Shown piece by piece: positions 3,034 to 61,672 of a stretch of DNA of 63,569 bases. The notes beneath the pieces are model-generated. The model saw only the letters and a program-made list of their open reading frames with translations, was not told the DNA's origin and made no database searches. The position numbers and the translations under genes were made by a program. This stretch comes from an uncultured Candidatus Saccharibacteria bacterium (GTDB lineage: Bacteria > Patescibacteriota > Minisyncoccia > Phycocordibacterales > PALSA-1337): positions 5,191 through 68,759 of the forward strand of contig CAZLQL010000001.1 of the NCBI GenBank assembly GCA_964561875.1, given 5' to 3'. Every line of letters begins with the position of its first letter. The stretch's first letter is position 1.

Positions 3034-3657
3034 ATGTTAAAAGAAATAATTCTTTCATTAATAACCGGTATTGTTTCGGCTGTTATCTATTCAATTATCC
3101 AAAATTTCTATCTTAACTATTATTGGTTTAAAACTAAATCAAAATTTTTAACCGAAATTAAACATTCAGTTTTAAAAATAAGATCTCTTGCAGTTACCAT
3201 ACTTGAGATTGACGTAATATATGATAATGGAGAAGAAAATGATCACTTAATGACAGACGAGGAATTATTGGAAGAGGTTAAGTTGTATAACATCTCCGAT
3301 ATTCAATTTAGTAAATTAAGTAAAGGTATTAGAAAAATTACAGAAGAAATTGAAAAAAGAAGGAGAGACACACTCAATATTTCTACCTTCACCCCAATGG
3401 AATTCCATACAGTAGATAAACTAATATTTTCAATGTCTAGTTTTTATGGTCTACATTCTTGGGTTGAAGATGAAATATTAGAAATTAATACGCAAGAGAA
3501 ATTAAAAGAAAAACTAATCGAAATTCTTATTTTAGCAGAAACAGTTAAATTTCCTGTTAATTTTTTTGATAAACTTATTAAGTATATTAATCTACAGAAG
3601 TTTTTATCAAAATCTCGTAGTATCCATTTAAATAAATATGATTCAATCCTTTTTTAA
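3034..3657 (+). CDS. Hypothetical protein: one N-terminal TM helix plus a charged helical cytoplasmic domain
   Basis: 207-aa ORF. ATG begins 1 nt after the tRNA-Gln CCA. The TM helix starts at residue 4, so the start cannot be far downstream. No family recognised. Confidence 0.6.
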   Translation: MLKEIILSLITGIVSAVIYSIIQNFYLNYYWFKTKSKFLTEIKHSVLKIRSLAVTILEIDVIYDNGEENDHLMTDEELLEEVKLYNISDIQFSKLSKGIRKITEEIEKRRRDTLNISTFTPMEFHTVDKLIFSMSSFYGLHSWVEDEILEINTQEKLKEKLIEILILAETVKFPVNFFDKLIKYINLQKFLSKSRSIHLNKYDSILF

Positions 3658-5737: not shown

Positions 5738-6745
5738 CTATTTTGTTTTTGTTAATGAAAATTTAATATTTTTAACTTCTTTAAAATTCTTTTCCATTGT
5801 TTTATATATGTTTTGTGCAATTCTCTCTATAACTGGTACACTTACAGAATTGCCGAATTGTTTGTAAAGATGCGAGTCAGAAATATTAGGTATTTTGTAT
5901 GAATCAGGAAAGCCTTGTAGCCGAGCACACTCTCTTGGTGTAAGTTTTCTAATTCCTTTTTTGTCCTTTACTATCGGAACATTATGACCACCAGTACCCA
6001 TGTTTGCAGTCAGGGTAGGGCATACACCACTTTTATTTTGTCTTACATATTTTCTTCTCCATTGATATACACTACCAAGTTCAAAATCATATTTTATTAA
6101 TTTTTTATATAAAGGCTTGTCATTATAATAATATTTTTGATTAATTTTATTTGGATCCTCTAATATATCAGTGATATTTTTTATTCTTTCTATTTTTTCT
6201 GGAAATTCAAAATCATGTATAAGACCTGTATTTTTCTTAAAACCAACAATATAAATACGCTCTCTATTTTGAGGTATGTTTCCATAATACATACTATTTA
6301 ATATTTTAAATTTTATATAGTATCCTAGTTTATCCAGTGTTTTGCTTATAACTTTAAATGTATTACCATTATCATGGCTATATAAATTTTTTACATTTTC
6401 TAAAAGAAAACCTATAGGTTTTCTTTCATCAATAATTCTTGCAACATCAAAAAATAGATTGCCTCTTTCGTCTTTAAATCCTTTGCGATAACCTGCTACA
6501 GAAAAAGCTTGGCAAGGGAACCCGCCAATTAGAAAATCAAATTTAGGTAAATCATTAACCTTAATTTTTCGAATATCCAAAACTGTGAGTGGTGCTTGCG
6601 TAAAATTTAAATCATAAGTCTCTCTACATTTTGGCTCAAAATCATTAGCAAAAACAGTTTTAAACCCAGCTCTTTCAAAGCCTAATCTTATGCCACCTAT
6701 TCCAGCAAATAAGTCTATTGTTTTAATATCTTTAATATTGATCAT
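5738..6745 (-). CDS. dcm: DNA (cytosine-5)-methyltransferase
   Basis: Motif I DLFAGIGG, IV GFPCQAFS, VI ENVKNL, VIII QNRERIYIVG, X GNSVSVPV. Confidence 0.93.
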   Translation of the reverse strand: MINIKDIKTIDLFAGIGGIRLGFERAGFKTVFANDFEPKCRETYDLNFTQAPLTVLDIRKIKVNDLPKFDFLIGGFPCQAFSVAGYRKGFKDERGNLFFDVARIIDERKPIGFLLENVKNLYSHDNGNTFKVISKTLDKLGYYIKFKILNSMYYGNIPQNRERIYIVGFKKNTGLIHDFEFPEKIERIKNITDILEDPNKINQKYYYNDKPLYKKLIKYDFELGSVYQWRRKYVRQNKSGVCPTLTANMGTGGHNVPIVKDKKGIRKLTPRECARLQGFPDSYKIPNISDSHLYKQFGNSVSVPVIERIAQNIYKTMEKNFKEVKNIKFSLTKTK

Positions 6746-7078
6746 TATCTAAATTGTATCATTGTATATAAAAAAAGCAGCAAGAGTGTTATTAAACAAA
6801 CCCTCTATTTTTATGTAAAACTATTTTAAAATAATTTTCTGATAAGATATGTTTGGCTATTTAGATATCTTAGAATTTTACAGACACAATGCTTAATGAA
6901 TATTAGCCACACAAGACAATGAGGTTGAGGGTTAATATTTCGATTAAAAATATCAGAGAAGAAAAGAACACCATACCTCATAGACATGTATTCTTTGCTT
7001 TAATATACCGTTAATTTCAACTTTTTACAGAGCTAAAATATAGTTAACATAGATTATCTATACACCCCTCACTATTTA

Positions 7079-7177: not shown

Positions 7178-7435
7178 ATGGAGGCTATCAAAGCCATAGT
7201 GCAGAGGATAGTCCCCGAGGGAAAACATGGACCCTTTTTTGTTACCACTTCAGACCAAGTCGATGGTTCAGTGACATGTTCACTTGATTCAACGGCGTGG
7301 TTGGAAGAGGAGTGGCCAGAAGTAGGAGAGTTTGTTTACCTTAGTAGACTACGACAAAAGCGCGCTGGATGGCGCGCGAAAGAAGGACGGTTTTGGAAAT
7401 TGTCCGACGAGCAAAAAAAGCAAACAGAAACCTAG
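7178..7435 (+). CDS. Hypothetical small protein (85 aa), G+C-rich ORFan
   Basis: ATG 7178 is preceded by AAGGAAG. The GTG at 7130 in the ORF track lacks an SD. Confidence 0.55.
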   Translation: MEAIKAIVQRIVPEGKHGPFFVTTSDQVDGSVTCSLDSTAWLEEEWPEVGEFVYLSRLRQKRAGWRAKEGRFWKLSDEQKKQTET

Positions 7436-7454
7436 AAAAGAGAAAGAAGAAGAA

Positions 7455-9005
7455 ATGAAATCAGCAATCAAGGCACTGTTCGAACAAGCTGGAGGTCAAA
7501 TCACTAAGTTTAATATCGACGTGACGATTCTCGTTGCAACGATGGCAGAGCTGGTGCGCGATTATATCGCAGAAGGAAATCTTAAGCTCGCGTTCGAAGC
7601 GTCCAAGGTCACCGGCAATCCTGCAGACCAACGCCTCGTTTTAGAAGCTTCTCGGAAGGTCAGATCATACTCGGAAAAGGTTGGTGTGGGTGGCCTTATG
7701 GAAGTCTTGGGGCAGGATCATTTCCTGTTCCAAGTTCTCCTTGCCACTGGCACCGAAAAGGAGTTGCGTGCTGTGGCACAAGAATTGGAGAAGAAAGGGT
7801 ATCTTAGGTCGAATGATGTGATCAAAATTTACACTCAACTGGAAGATCCTGTGGCACTCTACCGTTTTGGTAAAAAGGTGGCCAACAGCTACTTCACCGC
7901 AAAGAAAAAGGAAAAGAAAACACATGTTTTCAACGGTGGTACCTCTTCAATTCCCCAACATGCTCTCGAAATTTTGGCTGTGGCCAAGAAATTGGGGGCG
8001 AAGGATGTGAATCGAGAACTTATATGCTTTGGCGATAAGTTGTGTGCCGTAGATGGTGGGTTCAAGGTTGTGGTTCACAGTTCAAGTCGAGAAGAAGAAG
8101 TTCCTGAAGCAATTCGTGCTTACGAAATCGCAGGAACTTTAACAGCTCTTACAAAAGCAGCTGAAGGATACCTGGCGGTGGGTAATCTCCATGGGGCGGC
8201 ACGTTGCTTCAGCAAAGTTGGCGACGACAATCGCGTGATGGAGTTGGTTCATCAGTTAGCGAAGATCGGTGAATTGCTTGAAGCGGTTACGCTTCGTGCA
8301 ACTCTCATCAAAGAACCCATCACGGTTCAAGAGTTGGGGCGGTTGGTTGGAACTACAGCCGAATTCGCCAAGGCTAAGGTTGTTCAGACAATAAGTGCCT
8401 ATCTGGATGCTCGTGGCAAGGACGAGCCATTTCCTACATCGCACACATTCTGGCATTATAGCGACTCAAATGCTGATGAGTGGAATGAGTACCTGTACAC
8501 CGTGCACAGTATGGCCAGTCGTACCAATACGTACTTCTGTCGACCGTTTCCTTCAATCGCCAAAGAACTATATGCCACCAGCAATGCTCCTGTCATGACC
8601 CAGATTCATCTGGCGTTACAGAAGCACTTACTCGTCGGCTATATGCTCTCGGCAGTTACAATGGAAACGGATGGACGGTGTCCAAGTCGGGAACGTAAGT
8701 ATGTCCATGCGTTTGATGCTGCACTTCGTACGTTCGAGTATGGAGTCAACGGAGGTGGTTATAACCCCTTCGACGGCTTGAATTTCAAGACAGACCCTGA
8801 CATGTCAGCTCTGCTGAAAGTGCTTCTCAAGTTTCAGAAACAAGAGATTACTGTGGCCGGCAAGACAGGGGGCGGCAGCTTCGAGCACAATAGCCAGTCT
8901 CACAACTTCCTTCGTGAAAAAAGTCCTGAACTCCAGGGTAAAGTCAGAGAGGTTTACCAAAAACTTACTGGCGATATTCGGAGTCTCTTGACTCAACTGA
9001 AGTGA
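7455..9005 (+). CDS. Hypothetical helical-repeat protein (516 aa), G+C-rich ORFan
   Basis: ATG 7455 follows a purine-rich GAAAGAAGAAGAA. The upstream part of ORF 7332.. overlaps the previous gene. Confidence 0.6.
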   Translation: MKSAIKALFEQAGGQITKFNIDVTILVATMAELVRDYIAEGNLKLAFEASKVTGNPADQRLVLEASRKVRSYSEKVGVGGLMEVLGQDHFLFQVLLATGTEKELRAVAQELEKKGYLRSNDVIKIYTQLEDPVALYRFGKKVANSYFTAKKKEKKTHVFNGGTSSIPQHALEILAVAKKLGAKDVNRELICFGDKLCAVDGGFKVVVHSSSREEEVPEAIRAYEIAGTLTALTKAAEGYLAVGNLHGAARCFSKVGDDNRVMELVHQLAKIGELLEAVTLRATLIKEPITVQELGRLVGTTAEFAKAKVVQTISAYLDARGKDEPFPTSHTFWHYSDSNADEWNEYLYTVHSMASRTNTYFCRPFPSIAKELYATSNAPVMTQIHLALQKHLLVGYMLSAVTMETDGRCPSRERKYVHAFDAALRTFEYGVNGGGYNPFDGLNFKTDPDMSALLKVLLKFQKQEITVAGKTGGGSFEHNSQSHNFLREKSPELQGKVREVYQKLTGDIRSLLTQLK

Positions 9006-9021
9006 AATAACCTTCAGGCAC

Positions 9022-9063
9022 ATGACCCTCAAGTAAGCGTAAGCTGAACGGGGGTCATTTTTG
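9022..9063 (+). terminator. Rho-independent terminator
   Basis: ATGACCC (9022-9028) pairs with GGGGTCAT (9051-9058), followed by a T-run. Confidence 0.55.
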
Positions 9064-9189
9064 TACAAAAATAAATAGCCTTATCATATATTAACTATTC
9101 GGGACCAATTCAGATCTGATATATTGACTAAAGAATTTCTAATCTCATATAAGACTCGCAGTAGGCAAGTCTCATGATATAATCTTTTC

Positions 9190-9468
9190 ATGAAAATGAT
9201 TTTATCACTAACAACCCTTATTTTAGGATTTATATGGTATCACTCTGCTTTTAGTATTCCAGAAATAGTACAAGGTATGATCTCAGGTCTTATTGCTATG
9301 GTTTCAATTTACTTTGCTATTAGTGCTATACGTCACAAAGAAGTTGCTTCGGGGTTGGGATTAATTAAATTTTTCGGTTTGTTACTTGCTATTTTTATTA
9401 TAATTATAGATATAATTTTTATAGCATCTTCTGTTGGTGTATGGGTTGTTGCTTTCTTTGTTGGTTAA
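9190..9468 (+). CDS. Small integral membrane protein (92 aa, about 3 TM)
   Basis: Hydrophobic ORF. TATAAT (9178-9183) lies exactly 6 nt before the ATG. Confidence 0.55.
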   Translation: MKMILSLTTLILGFIWYHSAFSIPEIVQGMISGLIAMVSIYFAISAIRHKEVASGLGLIKFFGLLLAIFIIIIDIIFIASSVGVWVVAFFVG

Positions 9469-9497
9469 TTTGAAAAAGTTTCTTAAATATAAAAAAG

Positions 9498-9540
9498 AAA
9501 ACCGCTCTGCAAAAGCTTTGCGGCTTTCGTGAGCGGTTTG
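9498..9540. terminator. Bidirectional hairpin terminator between convergent genes
   Basis: AAACCGCTC (9499-9507) pairs with GAGCGGTTT (9531-9539), with flanking A and T runs. Confidence 0.55.
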
Positions 9541-9559
9541 TTGCACAAGACTAGCAAAG

Positions 9560-10258
9560 CTAGCGTGTACGAAACAGTCTGGTGATTCTAAACTTTTCAG
9601 TGAAATCACCCACACAATCACCAAATCCAGACACCGATATTTGGTAATTGCGTCCACCAATATTTCCGGCAGAAATGCCGTTAGGATTTGGTGGAGGGAC
9701 AGTGAAGAGGTAGCTTCCGGTATTGGGAACCTTGAATGCGATGATGGTTTCTCCAGCATCACCACTTTCGGTGTTGTACCGAAAATCCCAAAGACCGATT
9801 TGAACCATGTCTGCTTGGCCATGCGTTGACCACTTTATCTCATAGGTCTTGCCAACATACCAGACATCACTTTCGTCTGGTGAGGTCACAATTATCTTGG
9901 CCTCACTCACATGAATTGTCATTGAGCGGTTAACCCATTCCTTGCCGTTGTAGGCGGTAACAGAAACTGTCTTGTCACCAGCTTTTTGGTAAATGTTGGT
10001 GACAGATCGCGCATACTGGTATGGGTAATTTTTGTTCCAGTTGTAGAGGTTGGGGAACTCCTCCGCGTCTGCATTCCAAGCAAACGAGTAGGGTGAGTTC
10101 GTATCACCACCCTCTACGTGGATTTTCCACGTAACGGTATCTCCAATGACAGGGTGTGCCGGTTCTGCCGACATGAAGAGGGTGAGGTCGGCCAGTGCAC
10201 TGAATGAGCTGATGACCAATACGACAATTGACACAATTAGTGATGACAGAGCTTTCAT
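9560..10258 (-). CDS. Secreted protein with a PKD-like domain plus a Kre9/KNH-like (Ser/Thr-rich GPI-anchored family fold) beta-sandwich domain
   Basis: Signal peptide MKALSSLIVSIVVLVISSFSALA. PKD-like GDTVTW...YSFAWNAD...YQKAGDKTVSVTAYNG. Second domain VTSPDESDVWYVGKTYEIKWST...VQIGL...VPNTGSYLFTVP. G+C-rich with an AAGGAA SD. Confidence 0.6.
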   Translation of the reverse strand: MKALSSLIVSIVVLVISSFSALADLTLFMSAEPAHPVIGDTVTWKIHVEGGDTNSPYSFAWNADAEEFPNLYNWNKNYPYQYARSVTNIYQKAGDKTVSVTAYNGKEWVNRSMTIHVSEAKIIVTSPDESDVWYVGKTYEIKWSTHGQADMVQIGLWDFRYNTESGDAGETIIAFKVPNTGSYLFTVPPPNPNGISAGNIGGRNYQISVSGFGDCVGDFTEKFRITRLFRTR

Positions 10259-10488
10259 CTTACTATTCCTTACAAGGTGCGTTTGTTTAGTTCAAGAGTT
10301 GTTCCTGTAGCTATACAGGCTCCTAATCTACTGGTTAATAGTATACAACATTAGTGGGCAGACTGTCAAGTTATTTATATCAAACAGTTTTAATATAAAC
10401 CACCAACCCATTGCTACATATCACTTTTAATGGTATTTTAATGCAGTAATTTTGTACATTAAATTAAACAATAGAAAGGAGGTTTTTT

Positions 10489-20405: not shown

Positions 20406-20454
20406 TTTTGATTTCCAAAAACCCCGCGAGCATTTGCTCCCGGGGTTTTGTTTT
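20406..20454 (+). repeat. 49-bp terminator-containing repeat, copy 1
   Basis: TTTTGATTTCCAAAAACCCCGCGAGCATTTGCTCCCGGGGTTTTGTTTT. Hairpin AACCCCG/CGGGGTT plus a T-run. Identical to 21403-21451. Confidence 0.9.
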
Positions 20455-20568
20455 GACAAAAATGTATAAAAGTATAGAGTCATAAAGGTTTGCACGTTGT
20501 AAACCTTATCTATAACCAATATCCTTGAGAGGGGATAACTTTGGCCTGAGAGGGTCAAGAAAGGTAAA

Positions 20569-21393
20569 ATGAGTACTATAGCTGAAGGAAAAGATACGGT
20601 ATGGAGTGAATCGAGAATGTCATGTTTGGTTGAAGTTCTTATTAAACCAAACGTTCCAAACTTAGAAACTCAAATAAGAAAATCCTGCCTTAGCAGAGTT
20701 GTTGCATCTAATGGAAATGCAACTGAAATTGAGGTAGCGTTTGGACATACTCTGGATGAAATCGTTGCTAATGATCAATTTTCTAACTATAGCTTGATCG
20801 CTGATTGTGTTTCATGTTGGAAGGTTTGTCCAAGTAGTGAGACGGTAAATGTAGGGGTATTGAGGGCGATCGATTCCAAGATGAGATCTAGAGAAATACC
20901 GCTATCCATGAGTGAGGGTATTCTTATAGGCCTGATTGAACTTTTTACAGACTGTAAGCAGGATCAAAACTTGTTCGACGCTTTGTACTCTTCAAAGCGA
21001 TACCAGCTACTTACCTATGTTAGAGATACTAGTGTCTGTATTTCAAGAGAGGGTTCCGGTCGTCTTTCAACCGCAGTAAAATTTTTTCTAGAACCTGTTT
21101 GGAATACTGGCGGTAGACTCGGTTCAGGCAGATTGATGCAGATACTCATACTTATCGAAAGGTATAGTCGGATTTATAGAAATGAATCTACTTTAGTCTT
21201 TCCAGATATGACTTATTTTCAGCCAGAGGGGTTATTTGAATATTTCCTTTCTGAACTATCCGCGAGGTTATTTCTGTTGGCAAGATATGAGGTACGATTG
21301 GATATTTTTTCTACTTTTGCAGTTAATAATCAACTACTCAAAAGTCAGGGTGGTATTGACGCCTTAAGGTCAAAGTTTCCCTGGTTAGGATGA
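20569..21393 (+). CDS. Hypothetical protein (274 aa), ORFan
   Basis: ORF with an AAAGG SD; no motif recognised. Confidence 0.6.
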   Translation: MSTIAEGKDTVWSESRMSCLVEVLIKPNVPNLETQIRKSCLSRVVASNGNATEIEVAFGHTLDEIVANDQFSNYSLIADCVSCWKVCPSSETVNVGVLRAIDSKMRSREIPLSMSEGILIGLIELFTDCKQDQNLFDALYSSKRYQLLTYVRDTSVCISREGSGRLSTAVKFFLEPVWNTGGRLGSGRLMQILILIERYSRIYRNESTLVFPDMTYFQPEGLFEYFLSELSARLFLLARYEVRLDIFSTFAVNNQLLKSQGGIDALRSKFPWLG

Positions 21394-21402
21394 TTTTGAA
21401 CC

Positions 21403-21451
21403 TTTTGATTTCCAAAAACCCCGCGAGCATTTGCTCCCGGGGTTTTGTTTT
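21403..21451 (+). repeat. 49-bp terminator-containing repeat, copy 2
   Basis: Perfect copy of 20406-20454, 997 bp downstream. Confidence 0.9.
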
Positions 21452-21490
21452 ACCCAAAACAGGTTTAATCTGCTATATTGTATAAACAAA

Positions 21491-26455: not shown

Positions 26456-26586
26456 TTTACATTTTTTATTTTAAAAAGCGCTCCATTGGGGCGCTTTGTT
26501 TTATTGATATTTTATAGATTTGATGAATTTATAATAATTGCATACTGGGTGTAATATGGTACAATTTTTCGTCAGAAGGAGGTCTT

Positions 26587-26799
26587 ATGGAGAAAAAAGT
26601 ATTTAGGATGTGTACAAGGTGTAGTGAAGGATTCGGTCTAAACCACGGTGGCGAAGCGCTACCACCACATCGTTGCGAAACCCCAAAAAAAGGAGGGGCC
26701 AATGCACACAGCACAACACACACTCGCCAGCATGTGGTTGGACAAGGAGTTGCCACCACTGGATGTGGCGAAGGTGGACATGGTTCGGGGGGAAGATAA
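26587..26799 (+). CDS. Small Cys/His-containing ORF (MCTRCSEGF...HRC), possibly the 5' part of a frameshifted gene
   Basis: AGGAGG lies 4 nt before the ATG. Overlaps the next ORF by about 100 nt in another frame. Confidence 0.35.
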   Translation: MEKKVFRMCTRCSEGFGLNHGGEALPPHRCETPKKGGANAHSTTHTRQHVVGQGVATTGCGEGGHGSGGR

Positions 26800-26911
26800 A
26801 CCACCCAAACCTGATTTTTCCCAGAGTTCAATACAAGTTGAATCTCCTGACGATGTGACAAAAGGTGATCACTTCCCAGGAAAATTTCGACTAGGCGATC
26901 TGTACGCCTAG
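26702..26911 (+). CDS. Small hypothetical protein (69 aa) or the 3' part of a frameshifted gene
   Basis: AGGAGG lies 5 nt before ATG 26702. The A7 run at 26685-26691 lies at the frame junction. Confidence 0.4.
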   Translation: MHTAQHTLASMWLDKELPPLDVAKVDMVRGEDKPPKPDFSQSSIQVESPDDVTKGDHFPGKFRLGDLYA

Positions 26912-27034
26912 GTGATTAGTACGCCTGATTTTCAAAAACATGCTCTACAAGAGCATGTTTTCTTATGTGTACAACTTCTGTGCTTTAGATTTTTTTATGA
27001 CATATAATGTATACATAATAAAAATGTTCTCCAT

Positions 27035-31640: not shown

Positions 31641-33314
31641 TTATTTACTTACTCTAACTCCACTGACACCTCGAGAGTTATTGTTTGAACCAAATATACT
31701 TGGTGCATTCGAAGGAGCTTTTACAGGTGTTCCAATTATTGTTCTTATAACTATAATATCTCCTTCATTTAGACCTGATATAACCTCAGTCTCGGTATCA
31801 TTTGTTATTCCTATCTCTATATTTTGTTGTCTTGGGGCTGTACTAGAAGTTATTCCCACACCTCCTTTTGTTGTAGCAGGGTATTGCTTATCAAAAGTTT
31901 CAATATATGAAGTTTTACCTCTTGTTTTTATCGCACTGTTTGGAATTATCAATATATTTTCTTTACTGTCTGTTATAATTTCTGCACTTACACTCATACC
32001 TGGACGAACTCTTGGATCTTGTTTATCTAGAGTTATCTCTGCTGAGTATGTGACAACACCTTGATTCATAGTTCCGACGATATCTAGTTTTGTCACCTCA
32101 CCACTTATTGTAAGATCATTCACTGCATCAAAAGTCATTTTTGATTTTTGACCGACTTTAACCTTTGAAGCATCCACTTCATTTAATGATATAGTAGCTA
32201 TTTGTTTTTTTGTTATTAATGTTGCCACTACTCCGCTAGCAGAATCACCCTTTTTTACATTTATTTTTGCAACTATTCCATCGATAGGAGCTTTAACAAA
32301 ATAATTTTCATAATTGTATTGCTTTTGTTTTAAGTTTAAAGCCTCAGACTTTATATCTAGCTCATCTGCCCCTGATTCTATTTTAATTAAATTTTCATTC
32401 TTTTCATTTACATCAAGTTTTGCGCTTGCTATAGCATTTTTCGCAGATAACAATGCATCTATATCGCTACTTACTTTTAGTGACCAAGATGATATATCTG
32501 TTTGGGCTAGTGATAAACCTGACTGAGTCTGTGTCGTTCCGTACTGACTTATATAGTCTGCAGCAGATTTTGCATCCTTCACAACCTGTGCCAATTCTCT
32601 CATCACTAGATATGTATTTCCAACTATTGATTCTATTTCTTCTTTTGAACTATTTGTACTAAAAGATTTGTAAGAGGGAAGTAATGCTTCGTATCTTGCT
32701 TTTGCTTTTATATAGTCATCAAGAGTTGTTTTTCTGTACTGACTTTCTACAGTAGAGTATTGTTTTTGATCGCTTAGGAAACCACTTGAATTATTTAACA
32801 TTGAATCAATACTGTTTATTATACTTGGAGCATCCAGAAAAGCTCCCAATACACTACTATATCCATCCCCGTATGCTTTCTTTTCTGAATCTTTTGCACT
32901 TTCTAGTGAGCTCTGTGCCTGTAGTAAAGATACTTTGTCTGCTGGCTTTGTAAGTTTTTGATAAGCGATTTTAGCACTTTCCAATGCAATCTCAGCATCT
33001 CTTCCATCAAGTTGTATTATGGTTGTACCAGCTTTTACTTCCTGACCCTCTTTTATTGGTATGTTTATCACATCTGCAGTTACTTTTGCTTTTAGATCGA
33101 TTTGGTTTGAGGTTGATATCTGTCCGGTACCAGTAACTGTAGATGATATACTTCCAGTTTTTACTGTCCCTAGGAAATACTGACTACTCACATTCTTTCC
33201 TGTGAGGGAAGTGATTGTGTAATAAATTGAAATTATTAATACAATAGCAATTATAAAGCTGGTTTTTTTATAATTTAATGCGAGCCTCTTTAAATTTACA
33301 AAGTTTTTTTTCAT
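31641..33314 (-). CDS. HlyD/MacA-type periplasmic adaptor (membrane fusion protein)
   Basis: N-terminal TM, long coiled-coil, lipoyl and beta-barrel-like segments. Operon with the two genes above. Confidence 0.75.
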   Translation of the reverse strand: MKKNFVNLKRLALNYKKTSFIIAIVLIISIYYTITSLTGKNVSSQYFLGTVKTGSISSTVTGTGQISTSNQIDLKAKVTADVINIPIKEGQEVKAGTTIIQLDGRDAEIALESAKIAYQKLTKPADKVSLLQAQSSLESAKDSEKKAYGDGYSSVLGAFLDAPSIINSIDSMLNNSSGFLSDQKQYSTVESQYRKTTLDDYIKAKARYEALLPSYKSFSTNSSKEEIESIVGNTYLVMRELAQVVKDAKSAADYISQYGTTQTQSGLSLAQTDISSWSLKVSSDIDALLSAKNAIASAKLDVNEKNENLIKIESGADELDIKSEALNLKQKQYNYENYFVKAPIDGIVAKINVKKGDSASGVVATLITKKQIATISLNEVDASKVKVGQKSKMTFDAVNDLTISGEVTKLDIVGTMNQGVVTYSAEITLDKQDPRVRPGMSVSAEIITDSKENILIIPNSAIKTRGKTSYIETFDKQYPATTKGGVGITSSTAPRQQNIEIGITNDTETEVISGLNEGDIIVIRTIIGTPVKAPSNAPSIFGSNNNSRGVSGVRVSK

Positions 33315-33366
33315 ATGTTTGATCCTATTATAACATCCACACCAGCAGTATTGTTACAATTACCTA

Positions 33367-33396
33367 TTGACTTACAGCATATTTATGTGCTATAAT
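33367..33396 (+). promoter_or_regulatory. Consensus sigma70 promoter
   Basis: TTGACT (33367-33372), 18-nt spacer, TATAAT (33391-33396). ATG lies 8 nt downstream. Confidence 0.55.
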
Positions 33397-33404
33397 ATGA
33401 ACAT

Positions 33405-33833
33405 ATGAGATCTTTGATTTGTGGGTTTTTGCTGAGTCTTTTTGTCTCTGGGTGCGGAACTCAAAATTGGTCCGCACGGATGCCCCTCGATCCCATCGGG
33501 GCATCTAGCTTGCCCGAAACTCGGGCAAGCTACTCCTCCCGCACCGTCGGCTTCGACGGTCGGGAGGAGGTGCACCAATCGGTAAACCGTCAGGACGTTC
33601 AAACGTACTACGGACAAACGCAGTCAGGGGGAATCACCCCTGTGACTGTTGTGGTAGATACTCAATACGAGTATCACTATACAAACAACACTCCACGGTA
33701 CTATAGTGTACCCGGGTACACTATAGATCCAAATGGGCCAAAAGGTGGATACATACAGGGTACAATCCCTCTCATCCCCCGAGAAATCCCTGCAACACAA
33801 AAGATGTTGCATGACAAAATCAAAGGGAAATGA
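33405..33833 (+). CDS. Putative lipoprotein (142 aa), G+C-rich ORFan
   Basis: Lipobox LFVSGC at residues 12-17. Hairpin terminator TCGAGCTA/TAGCTCGA downstream. Confidence 0.6.
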   Translation: MRSLICGFLLSLFVSGCGTQNWSARMPLDPIGASSLPETRASYSSRTVGFDGREEVHQSVNRQDVQTYYGQTQSGGITPVTVVVDTQYEYHYTNNTPRYYSVPGYTIDPNGPKGGYIQGTIPLIPREIPATQKMLHDKIKGK

Positions 33834-33950
33834 CCAACATTTTCCACATCGAGCTAGGCTTTGCTTAGCTCGATTTTGTTTTGTCTATACTTGTTGATCT
33901 GTAAAACTAAATAATATTTTAAACAATATAAAATATGGTAGTATTTCTTT

Positions 33951-50354: not shown

Positions 50355-50437
50355 TTTTTTTTATGATTTCAATCACGATACTTCCTATAGGTATCGTGTT
50401 TTGTTTTATGGAAATAATTTTCATTGTCACTTATCTT

Positions 50438-50481
50438 GAAATAAAAATACACCAATTATGTCGGCGTCTTTTTCAACTGCG
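50438..50481 (+). repeat. 44-nt repeat, copy A (weak hairpin plus T-run)
   Basis: GAAATAAAAATACACCAATTATGTCGGCGTCTTTTTCAACTGCG; 42 of 44 identical to 51974-52017. Confidence 0.85.
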
Positions 50482-51964: not shown

Positions 51965-51973
51965 TTTAGTAGT

Positions 51974-52017
51974 GAAATAAAAACACACCGATTATGTCGG
52001 CGTCTTTTTCAACTGCG
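51974..52017 (+). repeat. 44-nt repeat, copy B (hairpin plus T-run)
   Basis: GAAATAAAAACACACCGATTATGTCGGCGTCTTTTTCAACTGCG. Confidence 0.85.
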
Positions 52018-58808: not shown

Positions 58809-58881
58809 GCGCCCTTAGCTCAGTTGGTAGAGCAGCCCCTTTACACGGGGAAGGTCAGGAGTTCAAGTCTCTTAGGGCGCA
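58809..58881 (+). tRNA. tRNA-Val(TAC), CCA not encoded
   Basis: Acceptor GCGCCCT/AGGGCGC, D-arm GCTC-AGTTGGTA-GAGC, anticodon loop TTTACAC, T-loop TTCAAGT. Confidence 0.8.
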
Positions 58882-58910
58882 CAGAAATTCTTAATGTTAG
58901 AGTTTTAATT

Positions 58911-60217: not shown

Positions 60218-60400
60218 ATGTTGTCTATAGTGAACGGTGATAGTGTTTTGAATGAAAGTTGTGAGGTTATCAAAATCCCTGAAGAAGGAATGGTCGGTTT
60301 TTTAAAAGGTGAAAAATGCACATTCTTTATTCAGTTTGGATGGGTAACCCCTGATGAACTTTTTAGATTGAGACAAATCGAACCAAGAATAGCTCCGTAG
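60218..60400 (+). CDS. Hypothetical small protein (60 aa)
   Basis: AAAGGAAG SD. Hairpin terminator AGTCACACTA/TAGTGTGACT downstream. Confidence 0.5.
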   Translation: MLSIVNGDSVLNESCEVIKIPEEGMVGFLKGEKCTFFIQFGWVTPDELFRLRQIEPRIAP

Positions 60401-60495
60401 AATTTCAATAACTTTCAATTAGCAAAAGTCACACTAGTAAAATAGTGTGACTATTTATTTGAGATATAATACATAATTAGATATATTGCATATAT

Positions 60496-60577
60496 GCCCA
60501 GGTGGCGAAATTGGTAGACGCATACCCTTGAGGTGGGTACGCCGTAAGGTGTGGAGGTTCGAGTCCTCTCTTGGGCA
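60496..60577 (+). tRNA. tRNA-Leu(GAG), long variable arm, CCA not encoded
   Basis: Acceptor GCCCAGG/CTTGGGC (one G-U), anticodon stem TACCC/GGGTA, loop TTGAGGT, T-loop TTCGAGT. Confidence 0.85.
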
Positions 60578-60601
60578 CAGAAATTCTTACATTATTCTAT
60601 A
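60565..60601 (+). repeat. 37-bp direct repeat, left copy (last 13 nt of tRNA-Leu plus 24 nt of trailer); attL-like
   Basis: CCTCTCTTGGGCACAGAAATTCTTACATTATTCTATA; identical to 61411-61447. Confidence 0.92.
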
Positions 60602-61410
60602 CGACTCACGAATTCGAGATGCTTCCGAAGCGCTCGGTCATGGAGCGAATCTGCGGATGTGTGATGCAATGTCGCAGATTGGCTGGGGAGTATGACCGAA
60701 CCGACTCGAGCGTGACAGCGTGGAGCCATGTTGCAATGATACATCCCATGCTCCGTCGATTGGAGTAACTCATGGAGACTCAAGAGCGTAATGACAGGCT
60801 TCCAAAACTCAAGAACGGCTTTCACCAGTATTCACGTGTGAAATGAGATTCTGTCGGAAAATTGACGCCAATTCAGCCGTCCTGTACTATCTAGATTAGA
60901 TGCGCGAGACCCAACGCCAATAAATTGGGCGCGGGCGGGCGAGGTGTAGGTCGTAGAAAGGGTTAAACTTCCCATTACTAGGGTGTGGGCAATGTTAGTA
61001 CTGCGCGCTCGTAAGGAATCAGCATAGGGAATGCATCTCGGCTCTGAGTATACTCCATCAAGTGCAATCGATTGTCTCGTGGATTGGGCTTACCAAAGTA
61101 TTGGCAAGTCTTAACACCAGACAATGTATGTATCATGACCACAGAACAAAATGTATCAGCATCGCCGCCTTGATTGGGCTCATACTCGCGATTCTTATCG
61201 TATTGGTGATAGATTGGTTGAACACTTAAGTAAGTACAAGGTTAGCCTGGGTGGCAGTGGGAACTCCTGTTGTCGCCCTTTTTGTTGGCAAATTGATTAA
61301 TGCGAGACCCATTGCGACAGCGCCGATACAAAGAAGGTCATTTGGAGAGAAGCGCACTTTCTAGTTCCGATGCAACTGGTCCTTAGACAAGCGTCGTTCT
61401 CAAACCCATC
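60602..61410. mobile_element. 809-bp G+C-rich, ORF-poor insert between the direct repeats: integrase-less miniature integrative element and/or large structured RNA locus
   Basis: Bounded by perfect 37-bp direct repeats at a tRNA 3' end. Composition differs visibly from the flanks. Contains only short mutually overlapping ORFs without SD. Numerous local helices. Confidence 0.5.
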
Positions 61411-61447
61411 CCTCTCTTGGGCACAGAAATTCTTACATTATTCTATA
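61411..61447 (+). repeat. 37-bp direct repeat, right copy; attR-like
   Basis: Perfect copy of 60565-60601. Not preceded by a tRNA-like T-arm. Confidence 0.92.
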
Positions 61448-61537
61448 AGGACTCGAAAGCCGGAGTTTTGTTTTACTCCTATACATATCTCAAAAATATG
61501 ATATAAATTAGTATGTCAATATATTTATTGGCAATAT

Positions 61538-61612
61538 GGTGGCTATAGTTTAGTGGTAAAACCTCGGTCTGTGGATCCGAAGTTGTGGGTTCGATTCCCA
61601 CTAGCCACCCCA
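61538..61612 (+). tRNA. tRNA-His(GTG) with encoded G-1 and CCA
   Basis: G-1 plus acceptor GTGGCTA/TAGCCAC, C73, anticodon loop CTGTGGA, T-loop TTCGATT. Confidence 0.85.
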
Positions 61613-61672
61613 AAAATAGATTTTCCCAATTTAGCTTTTGCTAGCTTGGTAAAATCAGTTCCAATCTAAAAT

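What the first reader, a model, noticed from the sequence alone, without database searches (positions are those of the whole stretch)
60496..61447. 846-bp G+C-rich, ORF-free insertion at the 3' end of tRNA-Leu(GAG), bracketed by perfect 37-bp direct repeats and lacking an integrase
Seen directly:
- The 37-mer CCTCTCTTGGGCACAGAAATTCTTACATTATTCTATA occurs at 60565-60601 (last 13 nt of the tRNA plus 24 nt of trailer) and again, identical, at 61411-61447.
- The 809 bp between the copies are visibly much G+C-richer than the genome.
- They hold only short, mutually overlapping ORFs (65-77 aa, both strands, no SD).
- They are full of local helices: AATCTGCG 60648-60655 with CGCAGATT 60673-60680; CCCAA 60910-60914 with TTGGG 60925-60929; CTTACCAA 61089-61096 with TTGGCAAG 61101-61108.
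- The 10-mer GCGAGACCCA is repeated at 60904 and 61302.
Established knowledge: a duplicated tRNA 3' end is the signature of site-specific integration (attL/attR). Such elements normally carry a tyrosine or serine integrase, and none is present here.
Inference: this is either a miniature element mobilised in trans, or the cargo is a large structured non-coding RNA. G+C-rich ORF-free spacers in AT-rich genomes are how large ornate RNAs such as GOLLD and ROOL were found, and those are frequently tRNA-adjacent. I cannot assign it to any known family by eye.
A 33-aa hydrophobic ORF (61128-61229, MYHDHRTKCISIAALIGLILAILIVLVIDWLNT) would fit a type I toxin, but it has no SD.
Basis: partly seen in the sequence, partly recalled or inferred. 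Interest (0 to 1): 0.8.

Follow-up and report, generated by a model that had tools for sequence, protein, structure and literature searches.

The report
Decayed foreign DNA at tRNA-Leu
An 809-bp piece of foreign DNA sits behind a leucine tRNA gene between two identical 37-bp repeats, but it is broken-gene debris (the tail of a transposase gene and an interrupted membrane-protein gene) left by an integration event, not a large structured RNA.

Summary
A perfect 37-bp repeat (60565-60601 and 61411-61447) covers the last 13-14 nt of tRNA-Leu(GAG) plus 24 nt of trailer. It brackets 809 bp of 48.7% G+C DNA in a 33.6% G+C genome.

Relatives show that it is an insertion. In 59 related loci the order L19, tRNA-Leu, tRNA-His is conserved. 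Seven of them have a Leu-to-His gap of only 19-64 bp, and none holds anything like the insert.

The structured-RNA reading fails:
- There is no Rfam match.
- Folding energy is no better than shuffled sequence (z -0.4 and -1.1).
- No homologues exist to test for covariation.

The insert is not free of coding sequence. Positions 60604-60768 encode the last ~55 codons of an IS5-family transposase, cut off at the edge of the left repeat. Positions 61062-61364 carry two membrane-helix-like stretches in one frame, separated by a stop codon. The proposed "type I toxin" is therefore more likely part of a broken membrane-protein gene.

The best reading is a decayed, integrase-less remnant of an element integrated at the tRNA 3' end (CIME-like). 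The main rival is capture of an arbitrary DNA fragment with target duplication.

Of more interest, the relatives carry an undescribed ~100-nt structured element family behind their tRNA genes.

The parts
60459..60487 (+). Promoter-like site upstream of tRNA-Leu (TTGAGA, 17 nt, TATATT; 10 of 12 matches)
   Evidence: This is a consensus match only. That it drives read-through into the insert is my inference.
60496..60578 (+). Intact tRNA-Leu(GAG) gene (the attL side)
   Evidence: ARAGORN. Rfam tRNA at 49.1 bits. It is 96% identical to the tRNA-Leu of relative L012.
60565..60601 (+). Left copy of the 37-bp direct repeat: 13-14 nt of tRNA 3' end plus 24 nt of trailer
60602..61410 (.). 809-bp insert of foreign composition (48.7% G+C)
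   Evidence: Searches give the composition. It is absent from all 59 related loci. There is no similar DNA in phages or plasmids.
60604..60768 (+). 5'-truncated IS5-family transposase gene: the last ~55 codons plus the stop codon. The truncation point is at the edge of the left repeat, within about 5 nt.
   Evidence: NCBIfam NF033580 transpos_IS5_3 matches at E 2.8e-7, profile positions 209-255 of 258. Pfam DDE_Tnp_1_2 matches at E 0.12. tblastn finds 1369 plasmid records, among them annotated IS5 family transposases (11 of the 15 rows listed), up to 48% identity, best E 6e-8. The pairwise alignment with a Martelella IS5 transposase gives 44% over 61 aa. A profile I built from 5 transposases gives E 1.3e-15, profile positions 217-271. 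No other part of a transposase is detectable.
61062..61364 (+). Probable broken membrane-protein gene. Two hydrophobic segments lie in one frame, separated by the TAA stop at 61227-61229.
   Evidence: The first segment, ISIAALIGLILAILIVLVI, has mean hydropathy 3.32 against 1.68 +/- 0.30 in shuffles; 0 of 2000 shuffles reach it. The second, LAWVAVGTPVVALFVGKLI, lies in the same frame and scores 1.96 against 0.51 +/- 0.49; 0 of 2000. No family match is significant.
61249..61288 (+). Terminator-like hairpin (13 pairs) followed by TTTTTGTTGG. It lies inside the second hydrophobic coding-like stretch.
   Evidence: This is a consensus match and may be coincidental, given its position in the coding-like frame.
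61411..61447 (+). Right copy of the 37-bp direct repeat: the displaced tRNA 3' fragment plus trailer (the attR side)
61448..61457 (+). AGGACTCGAA, the exact reverse complement of the tRNA-Leu T-loop and T-stem (60558-60567), immediately after the right repeat. It may be a vestige of the small tRNA-trailing element seen in relatives.
   Evidence: A 10-mer match of this kind is expected about 0.04 times by chance. The covariance model of the element family does not score this region.
61539..61612 (+). tRNA-His(GTG), the conserved downstream neighbour of tRNA-Leu in this lineage

Best explanation
The feature is a small, dead remnant of laterally acquired DNA lodged at the 3' end of tRNA-Leu(GAG).

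How it most likely arose (inferred): a genetic element carrying a copy of the tRNA 3' end and its trailer recombined with the chromosomal tRNA-Leu. This is the classical attP x attB reaction of tRNA-targeting integrases. The tRNA stayed intact, and the identity block was duplicated on both sides as attL and attR.

Since then (inferred) the element has lost its recombinase and nearly everything else. One deletion probably ran from inside the left repeat into an IS5-type insertion sequence.

What remains (shown):
- the last ~55 codons of an IS5-family transposase gene;
- a stop-interrupted membrane-protein gene fragment;
- about 450 bp of unassignable DNA.

It has no detectable function of its own. 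Read-through from the tRNA-Leu promoter may transcribe it (inferred).

Because the two 37-bp repeats are still identical, the event is recent. The segment can still be lost by recombination between the repeats, or excised and moved in trans or in cis by a cognate integrase. In the terminology of integrative elements it is a cis-mobilizable element (CIME)-like islet.
For: - The perfect 37-bp repeat includes the tRNA 3' end, and the tRNA is intact on the left.
- The composition is foreign: 48.7% against 33.6% G+C.
- The neighbourhood tRNA-Arg, tRNA-Val, RluA, L19, tRNA-Leu, tRNA-His is conserved in 59 related metagenomic loci. The Leu-to-His spacer is only 19-64 bp in L026, L029, L030, L031, L033, L037 and L040. 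Removing one repeat unit from the window leaves 114 bp.
- No related locus holds any sequence similar to the insert.
- The content is gene debris: an IS5 transposase tail and two hydrophobic segments in one frame split by a stop.
- There is no integrase in the insert or among the 30 window ORFs scanned.
- Logan contigs from three sequencing runs all start at 61418. That is where a k=31 graph branches at the exit of the repeat, so the repeat structure is not peculiar to one assembly.
- Integrase-less units bracketed by tRNA 3'-end repeats recur in relatives, for example a 199-bp unit at the same tRNA-Leu in L011.
Against: - No integrase, integrase fragment or any other gene typical of integrative elements is detectable, so a site-specific origin is inferred only from the repeat and its position.
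- The transposase fragment starts within about 5 nt of the repeat edge. Under this model that needs a deletion ending in, or right at, the left repeat.
- Two other segments in the same window are bracketed by long repeats at sites that are not tRNAs: 57 nt at 20406 and 21403, and 45 nt at 50437 and 51973. This hints at a more general insertion process.
- No empty site or second copy was found in the same species.
- No excised circle can be tested with these tools.
Confidence: 0.5

Rival explanations
1. An arbitrary fragment of foreign DNA was captured without a dedicated integrase. The fragment was joined into the tRNA-Leu trailer by break repair at a staggered cut, by replication template switching, or by single-crossover integration of a small circle through short homology. 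The 37-bp duplication is a by-product of that event and not an att site.
For: - The insert begins abruptly in the middle of a transposase gene, at the edge of the repeat, as expected for a random fragment end.
- The transposase frame is still open over 55 codons and the repeats are identical, so the cut is recent.
- The ends carry no terminal inverted repeats or recombinase-site-like repeats.
- Two more segments in the window have long flanking duplications at terminator regions, not at tRNAs.
Against: - Duplication of a tRNA 3' end is the textbook footprint of integrase action.
- No microhomology is visible at the right junction.
- Target duplications of 37-57 bp are not a known outcome of bacterial end joining. 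This rests on my own knowledge.
- Relatives show many tRNA 3'-end duplications of a regular kind.
Confidence: 0.25
2. The segment is a working miniature non-autonomous element, selected as such. A helper integrase excises, transfers and re-integrates it in trans.
For: - The perfect attL- and attR-like repeats are retained.
- Small integrase-less units bracketed by tRNA 3'-end repeats are common in relatives.
Against: - There is no second copy anywhere: not in the window, in 59 related loci, in the GTDB representative genomes for the 22-mer core of the repeat (insert-specific words were not scanned there), or in IMG/VR.
- The content is pseudogene debris, not a conserved compact module.
- It lacks the structured core shared by the small elements of relatives.
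Confidence: 0.1
3. The cargo is a large structured non-coding RNA of the GOLLD, ROOL or OLE kind.
For: - The segment is G+C-rich in an AT-rich genome, sits next to a tRNA and has no long ORF.
- A promoter-like site and a terminator-like hairpin could bound a transcript.
Against: - No Rfam family matches at gathering scores or at E up to 10.
- Fold z-scores of -0.41 and -1.13 are ordinary.
- There are no homologues, so no covariation can be shown.
- At least about 470 of the 809 bp are coding-derived.
Confidence: 0.02
4. The insert carries a type I toxin-antitoxin-like module. The 33-aa hydrophobic peptide (61128-61229) would be the toxin that stabilises the segment.
For: - The hydrophobic helix is far beyond chance; 0 of 2000 shuffles reach it.
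- A terminator-like hairpin follows 20 nt after the stop codon.
Against: - A second hydrophobic segment follows in the same frame straight after the stop, which looks like a nonsense-interrupted longer gene.
- The 'terminator' lies inside that second segment.
- There is no Shine-Dalgarno sequence.
- No promoter-like site lies on the opposite strand within the insert.
- No family match is significant.
Confidence: 0.05
5. The structure is an assembly effect. The chromosome has an empty site, and the 846-bp unit exists only as a separate circle, or as a graph loop that the assembler threaded into the contig.
For: - In a k=31 graph the integrated state and 'empty site plus circle' look the same.
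- Logan contigs break at the repeat.
- No independent contig spans either junction.
Against: - The repeat is only 37 bp. Ordinary reads and the larger k values of metagenome assemblers span it, so the long contig implies reads joining both junctions (my inference).
- The repeat includes an AT-rich trailer specific to this genome, so a chance link to another organism is not credible.
- An 846-bp circle holding that sequence would itself be an excised element.
Confidence: 0.05

Closest known systems
Cis-mobilizable elements (CIMEs) and decayed tRNA-integrated genomic islets
   Same: Both are flanked by attL- and attR-like direct repeats that include the 3' end of a tRNA gene. The tRNA is kept intact. 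The composition is foreign. No integration or transfer genes remain. The content is decayed (definition in PMC5704250).
   Different: - At 846 bp it is far smaller than described CIMEs, which run to kilobases.
- No remnant of an ICE, IME or prophage gene shows what it decayed from.
- It lies in an AT-rich, probably candidate-phyla-radiation bacterium, where such elements are little studied.
- Mobilisation is untested.
IS5-family insertion sequences (NCBIfam transpos_IS5_3 type)
   Same: Positions 60604-60768 encode the conserved C-terminal end of the DDE transposase, including the stop codon at the expected place.
   Different: Only about one fifth of the gene is present. There are no terminal inverted repeats. 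The flanking duplication is 37 bp, not 2-9 bp. The IS fragment is a passenger and did not cause the insertion.
Large ornate non-coding RNAs found as G+C-rich ORF-poor spacers (GOLLD, ROOL, OLE, raiA, HEARO)
   Same: The resemblance is superficial: a G+C-rich, ORF-poor segment next to a tRNA in an AT-rich genome.
   Different: There is no covariance-model match, no excess folding stability and no homologues, and much of the sequence derives from coding DNA.
Small tRNA-trailing structured elements found here in related genomes (undescribed; not in Rfam 15)
   Same: They occupy the same kind of site, the tRNA 3' end, including tRNA-Leu(GAG) in L011, L019, L042 and L057. They are bracketed by a direct repeat of the tRNA 3' end, have no ORF and are G+C-richer than their genome.
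   Different: - Those units are 135-200 nt long.
- They share a covarying ~100-nt core and carry an inverted copy of the target.
- Their repeats start in the T-loop.
- The window insert has none of these features.

Membership tests
tRNA-targeting integrative element (genomic island or prophage type) | Direct repeats (attL and attR) containing the 3' part of a tRNA gene, with the tRNA reconstituted at one end | tested here: met
   The 37-bp perfect repeat is present and the tRNA-Leu is intact.
tRNA-targeting integrative element (genomic island or prophage type) | A tyrosine or serine recombinase gene inside the element | tested here: not met
   Six-frame scans of the insert against Pfam and NCBIfam, and a search of 5.8 billion proteins, found no recombinase.
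tRNA-targeting integrative element (genomic island or prophage type) | An unoccupied site in related genomes | tested here: met
   Seven related loci have Leu-to-His spacers of 19-64 bp. They are relatives with 67-76% L19 identity, not strains of the same species.
tRNA-targeting integrative element (genomic island or prophage type) | Excision to a circle carrying attP | not testable with these tools
   This needs the raw reads or PCR.
Cis-mobilizable element (CIME) | attL and attR retained, integration and transfer genes lost | tested here: met
   The definition comes from PMC5704250.
Cis-mobilizable element (CIME) | Derived by decay from an ICE or IME, and mobilisable by accretion with an incoming element | tested here: inconclusive
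   Pseudogene debris shows decay, but nothing diagnostic of an ICE or IME remains. Mobilisation cannot be tested here.
Large structured ncRNA (GOLLD, ROOL, OLE, HEARO, raiA and any other Rfam family) | A match to the family covariance model | tested here: not met
   cmscan against 4227 Rfam families at gathering scores and at E up to 10 reported only the two tRNAs at or above a gathering score; every other match, including one inside the insert (mir-1662, 17 bits against a gathering score of 85, E 3.8), was far below it.
Large structured ncRNA (GOLLD, ROOL, OLE, HEARO, raiA and any other Rfam family) | Conserved homologues with compensatory base changes, and folding beyond chance | tested here: not met
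   No homologues were found. The fold z-scores are -0.41 and -1.13.
IS5-family insertion sequence | A complete DDE transposase, terminal inverted repeats and a short target duplication | tested here: not met
   Only profile positions 209-255 of 258 are present. There are no terminal inverted repeats. The duplication is 37 bp.
Type I toxin-antitoxin | A small stand-alone hydrophobic peptide gene with an overlapping antisense RNA | tested here: inconclusive
   A hydrophobic helix is present. However, the frame continues into a second helix after the stop. There is no promoter-like site on the opposite strand within the insert and no significant family match.
MITE (miniature inverted-repeat transposable element) | Terminal inverted repeats, a short target duplication and multiple copies | tested here: not met

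The most novel reading that the evidence does not exclude
Three long flanking duplications in this window bracket inserted segments: 37 bp at tRNA-Leu, and 57 bp and 45 bp at two terminator regions. Relatives carry an abundant family of structured ~100-nt elements that duplicate tRNA 3' ends and hold an inverted copy of their target. Together these could reflect one insertion mechanism in these small-genome bacteria that has not been described. It would use no integrase gene of its own and might work through a folded single strand or a guide that mimics the target. On this reading the 809-bp fragment was captured by that machinery.
Probability: 0.12. Interest if true: 0.75.

Novelty: new member of a known kind. 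Interest (0 to 1): 0.3.

Why it matters
For the finding itself the stakes are modest. It documents recent lateral DNA uptake and decay at a tRNA site in an AT-rich, probably candidate-phyla-radiation bacterium, a group whose mobile elements are poorly known. It also shows that 'G+C-rich, ORF-poor, next to a tRNA' is not enough to call a large RNA. Translated profile searches and hydropathy statistics exposed gene debris that ORF lists and word-based protein searches missed.

The side observation may matter more. Related genomes carry a covarying structured element, absent from Rfam, behind many tRNA genes. It has both a direct and an inverted copy of the tRNA 3' end. This could be a new small RNA family or a new kind of target-mimicking mobile element.

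Tried and rejected
- Rfam, at gathering scores on the whole window and at E up to 10 on 60400-61650, gave only tRNAs at or above a gathering score; the rest, including one weak match inside the insert (mir-1662, 17 bits, gathering 85), was far below it.
- RNA folding of both strands against shuffles was unremarkable.
- blastn of the insert against phages and plasmids gave nothing meaningful.
- Four exact-word scans of IMG/VR (the repeat core and three insert words) gave nothing.
- The exact-word scan of GTDB genomes with the 22-mer repeat core gave one hit, inside an Oligoflexia ORF with no tRNA and no other similarity. I rejected it as chance; my estimate is about 0.07 such hits expected.
- A six-frame translation as one query against 5.8 billion proteins, and the transposase fragment alone, gave nothing. 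The word index is too coarse for a diverged 55-aa fragment.
- Exact-protein look-ups of insert ORFs found none on record.
- Look-ups of the flanking small genes found no contig that crosses the junctions.
- I tested whether the insert is a circularly permuted or whole IS5 element, since insert plus repeat (846 bp) is about the size of short IS5-type elements. I rejected this: neither pairwise tblastn nor a custom profile run with all filters off finds any transposase part other than the C-terminus.
- I tested whether the insert belongs to the small tRNA-trailing element family of relatives. I rejected this: there is no sequence similarity, no inverted copy of the target inside the insert, and no covariance-model hit.
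- I looked for integrases among the gap genes of relatives with larger Leu-to-His spacers. They are ordinary genes, by my reading of the ORF translations: cobalamin adenosyltransferase-like, peptidase, PPDK, P-type ATPase and HNH-like.
- Literature searches for the sample accessions and for a described tRNA-trailing element in Patescibacteria found nothing.
Full report
**Observation.** The 37-mer CCTCTCTTGGGCACAGAAATTCTTACATTATTCTATA occurs exactly twice in the window, at 60565-60601 and 61411-61447. No shuffle gave a match. ARAGORN places tRNA-Leu(GAG) at 60496-60578 and Infernal at 60496-60577 with 49.1 bits. The repeat therefore begins at the first base of the 3' strand of the T stem and runs 24 nt past the tRNA. 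The 809 bp between the copies have 48.7% G+C, against 33.6% for the rest of the window (profile). Only short ORFs are present. The window is a cellular chromosome: it encodes CTP synthase, GltX, DNA polymerase I, ribosomal protein L19, an RluA-type pseudouridine synthase and eight tRNAs. Its relatives come largely from groundwater metagenomes, some from samples labelled '01um', which I read as 0.1-um filter fractions. From this I infer a candidate-phyla-radiation (Patescibacteria) bacterium, but I did not test that.

**It is an insertion.** A scan of metagenome contigs with the L19 protein returned 59 related loci with 57-80% L19 identity, plus one truncated contig of the same species. The order tRNA-Arg(tct), tRNA-Val, RluA, L19, tRNA-Leu(gag), tRNA-His(gtg) is widely conserved.
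- In L026, L029, L030, L031, L033, L037 and L040 the two tRNAs are only 19-64 bp apart.
- In other loci the gap holds ordinary genes and no recombinases.
- In the window the gap is 960 bp, which becomes 114 bp once one repeat unit is removed.
- No related locus has any similarity to the insert. The tRNAs and flanks align well.

Logan contigs from three sequencing runs all begin at 61418, which is 30 nt before the first base past the right repeat. A k=31 graph branches exactly there. Left-hand contigs end at 60570, one base before a T/C difference from the tRNA-Leu of relative L012. The repeat structure is thus seen in several data sets. However, a k=31 graph cannot tell integration apart from an empty site plus a circle.

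**Not a structured RNA.**
- Rfam 15 gives only tRNAs at or above gathering scores on the whole window. At E up to 10 on 60400-61650 the only extra matches are far below their gathering scores (one of them, mir-1662 at 17 bits, lies inside the insert).
- The minimum free energy of the insert is ordinary: z = -0.41 on the + strand and -1.13 on the - strand.
- With no homologues no covariation can be shown.

**What the insert contains.** Profile searches of its ORFs and of its six reading frames changed the picture.

The 65-aa ORF 60571-60768 matches NCBIfam NF033580 (IS5 family transposase) at E 2.8e-7, over profile positions 209-255 of 258. It also matches Pfam DDE_Tnp_1_2 weakly. tblastn of the 53-aa fragment finds 1369 plasmid records at up to 48% identity (best E 6e-8); 11 of the 15 rows listed are annotated IS5 family transposases. 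The alignment with a Martelella transposase covers its residues 211-271, at 44% identity. A profile I built from five such transposases gives E 1.3e-15 for window 60598-60762. The stop codon is where the family's proteins end. Nothing else of a transposase is detectable in any frame, even with all HMMER filters off. This is therefore a 5'-truncated gene. It is not a whole or circularly permuted IS. The truncation point coincides, within about 5 nt, with the right edge of the left repeat.

Its mean hydropathy of 3.32 was reached by none of 2000 dinucleotide shuffles, which gave 1.68 +/- 0.30. Directly after its TAA stop, in the same frame, comes a second membrane-helix-like stretch, LAWVAVGTPVVALFVGKLI. 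It scores 1.96 against 0.51 +/- 0.49 for the second-best window in shuffles, again 0 of 2000. The terminator-like hairpin at 61249-61278 lies inside that second stretch. The simplest reading is a membrane-protein gene fragment broken by a nonsense mutation, not a stand-alone toxin. The toxin idea cannot be excluded. No family matches. A six-frame query against 5.8 billion proteins found nothing, but that search also missed the transposase tail, so it is weak negative evidence.

**Mechanism.** Several things are shown: an intact tRNA, a perfect duplication of its 3' end plus trailer, foreign DNA in between, unoccupied sites in relatives, and no recombinase. The most economical account is inferred. 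A tRNA-targeting element integrated by site-specific recombination, and deletions then removed its recombinase and most of its genes. What is left is an att-flanked islet of the kind called a cis-mobilizable element (PMC5704250).

The coincidence between the transposase truncation and the repeat edge is explained if the original identity block was longer and a deletion began inside its left copy. That endpoint would then define the present repeat boundary. The open transposase frame and the identical repeats argue that these events are recent.

The main rival is that an arbitrary fragment was captured with a 37-bp target duplication and without an integrase. Three observations favour it:
- the ragged fragment end;
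- the lack of any att-arm-like repeats;
- two other segments in the window with long flanking duplications at terminator regions. One is a 57-nt repeat at 20406 and 21403, around an ORF with no Pfam match that is not a paralogue of its neighbour. The other is a 45-nt repeat at 50437 and 51973, around three small ORFs.

I give the remnant model 0.5 and the capture model 0.25.

**Side finding.** The closest informative relative, L011, has a 199-bp ORF-free, G+C-richer unit at the same tRNA-Leu, between 20-nt repeats. A systematic scan of 144 tRNAs in the fetched loci and the window found nine such units, with repeat spacing 155-219 nt, behind tRNA-Leu, Arg(tct), Arg(ccg), Val and His. The repeats start in the T-loop. 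Each unit also holds the reverse complement of the tRNA acceptor 3' strand and of the T arm. As a single strand it therefore folds into a duplex that mimics its own target, with extra hairpins.

A covariance model of the ~100-nt core finds at least 20 copies. Where checked, they lie just downstream of a tRNA gene and in its orientation, sometimes in tandem. On 16 copies, 88.9% of cells pair, against 63.8% in shuffles and at most 55% when partners are slid. Compensatory changes occur at 24 of 30 pairs. That alignment was fitted to the model, which leans towards the structure. Rfam 15 has nothing like it, and two literature searches found no description.

In L025, two genes lie between one such unit and a second right end with a 19-nt tRNA-His repeat. 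The window has no scoring copy. However, AGGACTCGAA, the exact complement of the tRNA-Leu T arm, sits immediately after the right 37-bp repeat and may be a vestige. The 809-bp insert shares none of these features.

**Verdict.** The cargo is decayed foreign coding DNA, not an ornate RNA, and the feature belongs to a known kind: an integrase-less, att-flanked remnant. It is of modest interest in itself. The small tRNA-trailing element family of the relatives deserves its own follow-up.

Noticed in passing
L011:575-773; L019:1784-1922, 3162-3347(-), 6204-6408, 7613-7708; L027:2872-3034, 7991-8089; L035:7786-7935; L042:3248-3344(-), 6644-6836, 8349-8447; L050:2706-2839; L069:530-663; L057:2836-3001; L039:12-260; L032:194-282(-): Relatives carry a family of small ORF-free structured elements immediately downstream of tRNA genes (Leu, Arg, Val, His), where checked in the tRNA's orientation. 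Nine of them, with repeat spacing 155-219 nt, are bracketed by a 15-26-nt direct repeat of the tRNA 3' end that starts in the T-loop. The units also carry an inverted, interrupted copy of that same 3' end, so a single strand folds into a mimic of the target. The ~100-nt core covaries strongly: 24 of 30 pairs show compensatory changes. It is absent from Rfam 15. It may be a new RNA family or a new target-mimicking mobile element.
   Followed up: partly
L025:2736-4510: Behind tRNA-His lies one small element with a truncated right repeat. Two genes follow: a 198-aa product, which I read as methyltransferase-like from its sequence, and a 235-aa unknown. Then comes a second element-type right end (...CCTGTGAC) and a 19-nt copy of the tRNA-His 3' end. 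It looks like a gene cassette carried between element ends.
   Followed up: partly
window 20406-20462 and 21403-21459: A 57-nt direct repeat (95% identical) contains a G+C-rich terminator hairpin. It brackets a ~1-kb segment with one 274-aa ORF (20569-21393) that has no Pfam match and is not a paralogue of the upstream gene. This is a second insertion-like segment with a long flanking duplication.
   Followed up: partly
window 50437-50481 and 51973-52017: A 45-nt direct repeat (96% identical) brackets 1.5 kb with three small ORFs: 147, 132 and 102 aa, with weak holin- and DUF805-like matches. This is a third segment with a long flanking duplication.
   Followed up: partly
window 58870-58893 and 60566-60589: tRNA-Val(TAC) and tRNA-Leu(GAG) share the same first 12 trailer bases (CAGAAATTCTTA; the exact shared run is GCACAGAAATTCTTA). 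That is more than chance for two unrelated tRNAs. It could be a shared processing signal or the footprint of an older recombination event.
   Followed up: no
window 61448-61457: AGGACTCGAA, the perfect reverse complement of the tRNA-Leu T-loop and T-stem (60558-60567), follows the right 37-bp repeat directly and is followed by AAGCC. This resembles the 5' part of the small elements of relatives. The covariance model does not score it.
   Followed up: partly
window 7201-10350, 26551-26950, 33301-33850: Other G+C-rich islands (up to 51-54% in 300-nt windows) occur in the 34% G+C window. They include a 557-aa ORF (7332-9005) with no Pfam match and a PKD/Kre9-domain protein (9560-10258, - strand). 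They may be further laterally acquired DNA.
   Followed up: partly
window 5738-6745 (-): A C-5 cytosine DNA methyltransferase gene (Pfam E 1.1e-98) lies next to the G+C-rich island. No partner restriction enzyme was looked for.
   Followed up: no
L010:4847-4868 (CAIOKW010000172.1, Oligoflexia MAG): The 22-mer core of the repeat occurs once, inside a 329-aa ORF of an unrelated bacterium, with no tRNA and no other similarity. I judged it a chance match.
   Followed up: yes
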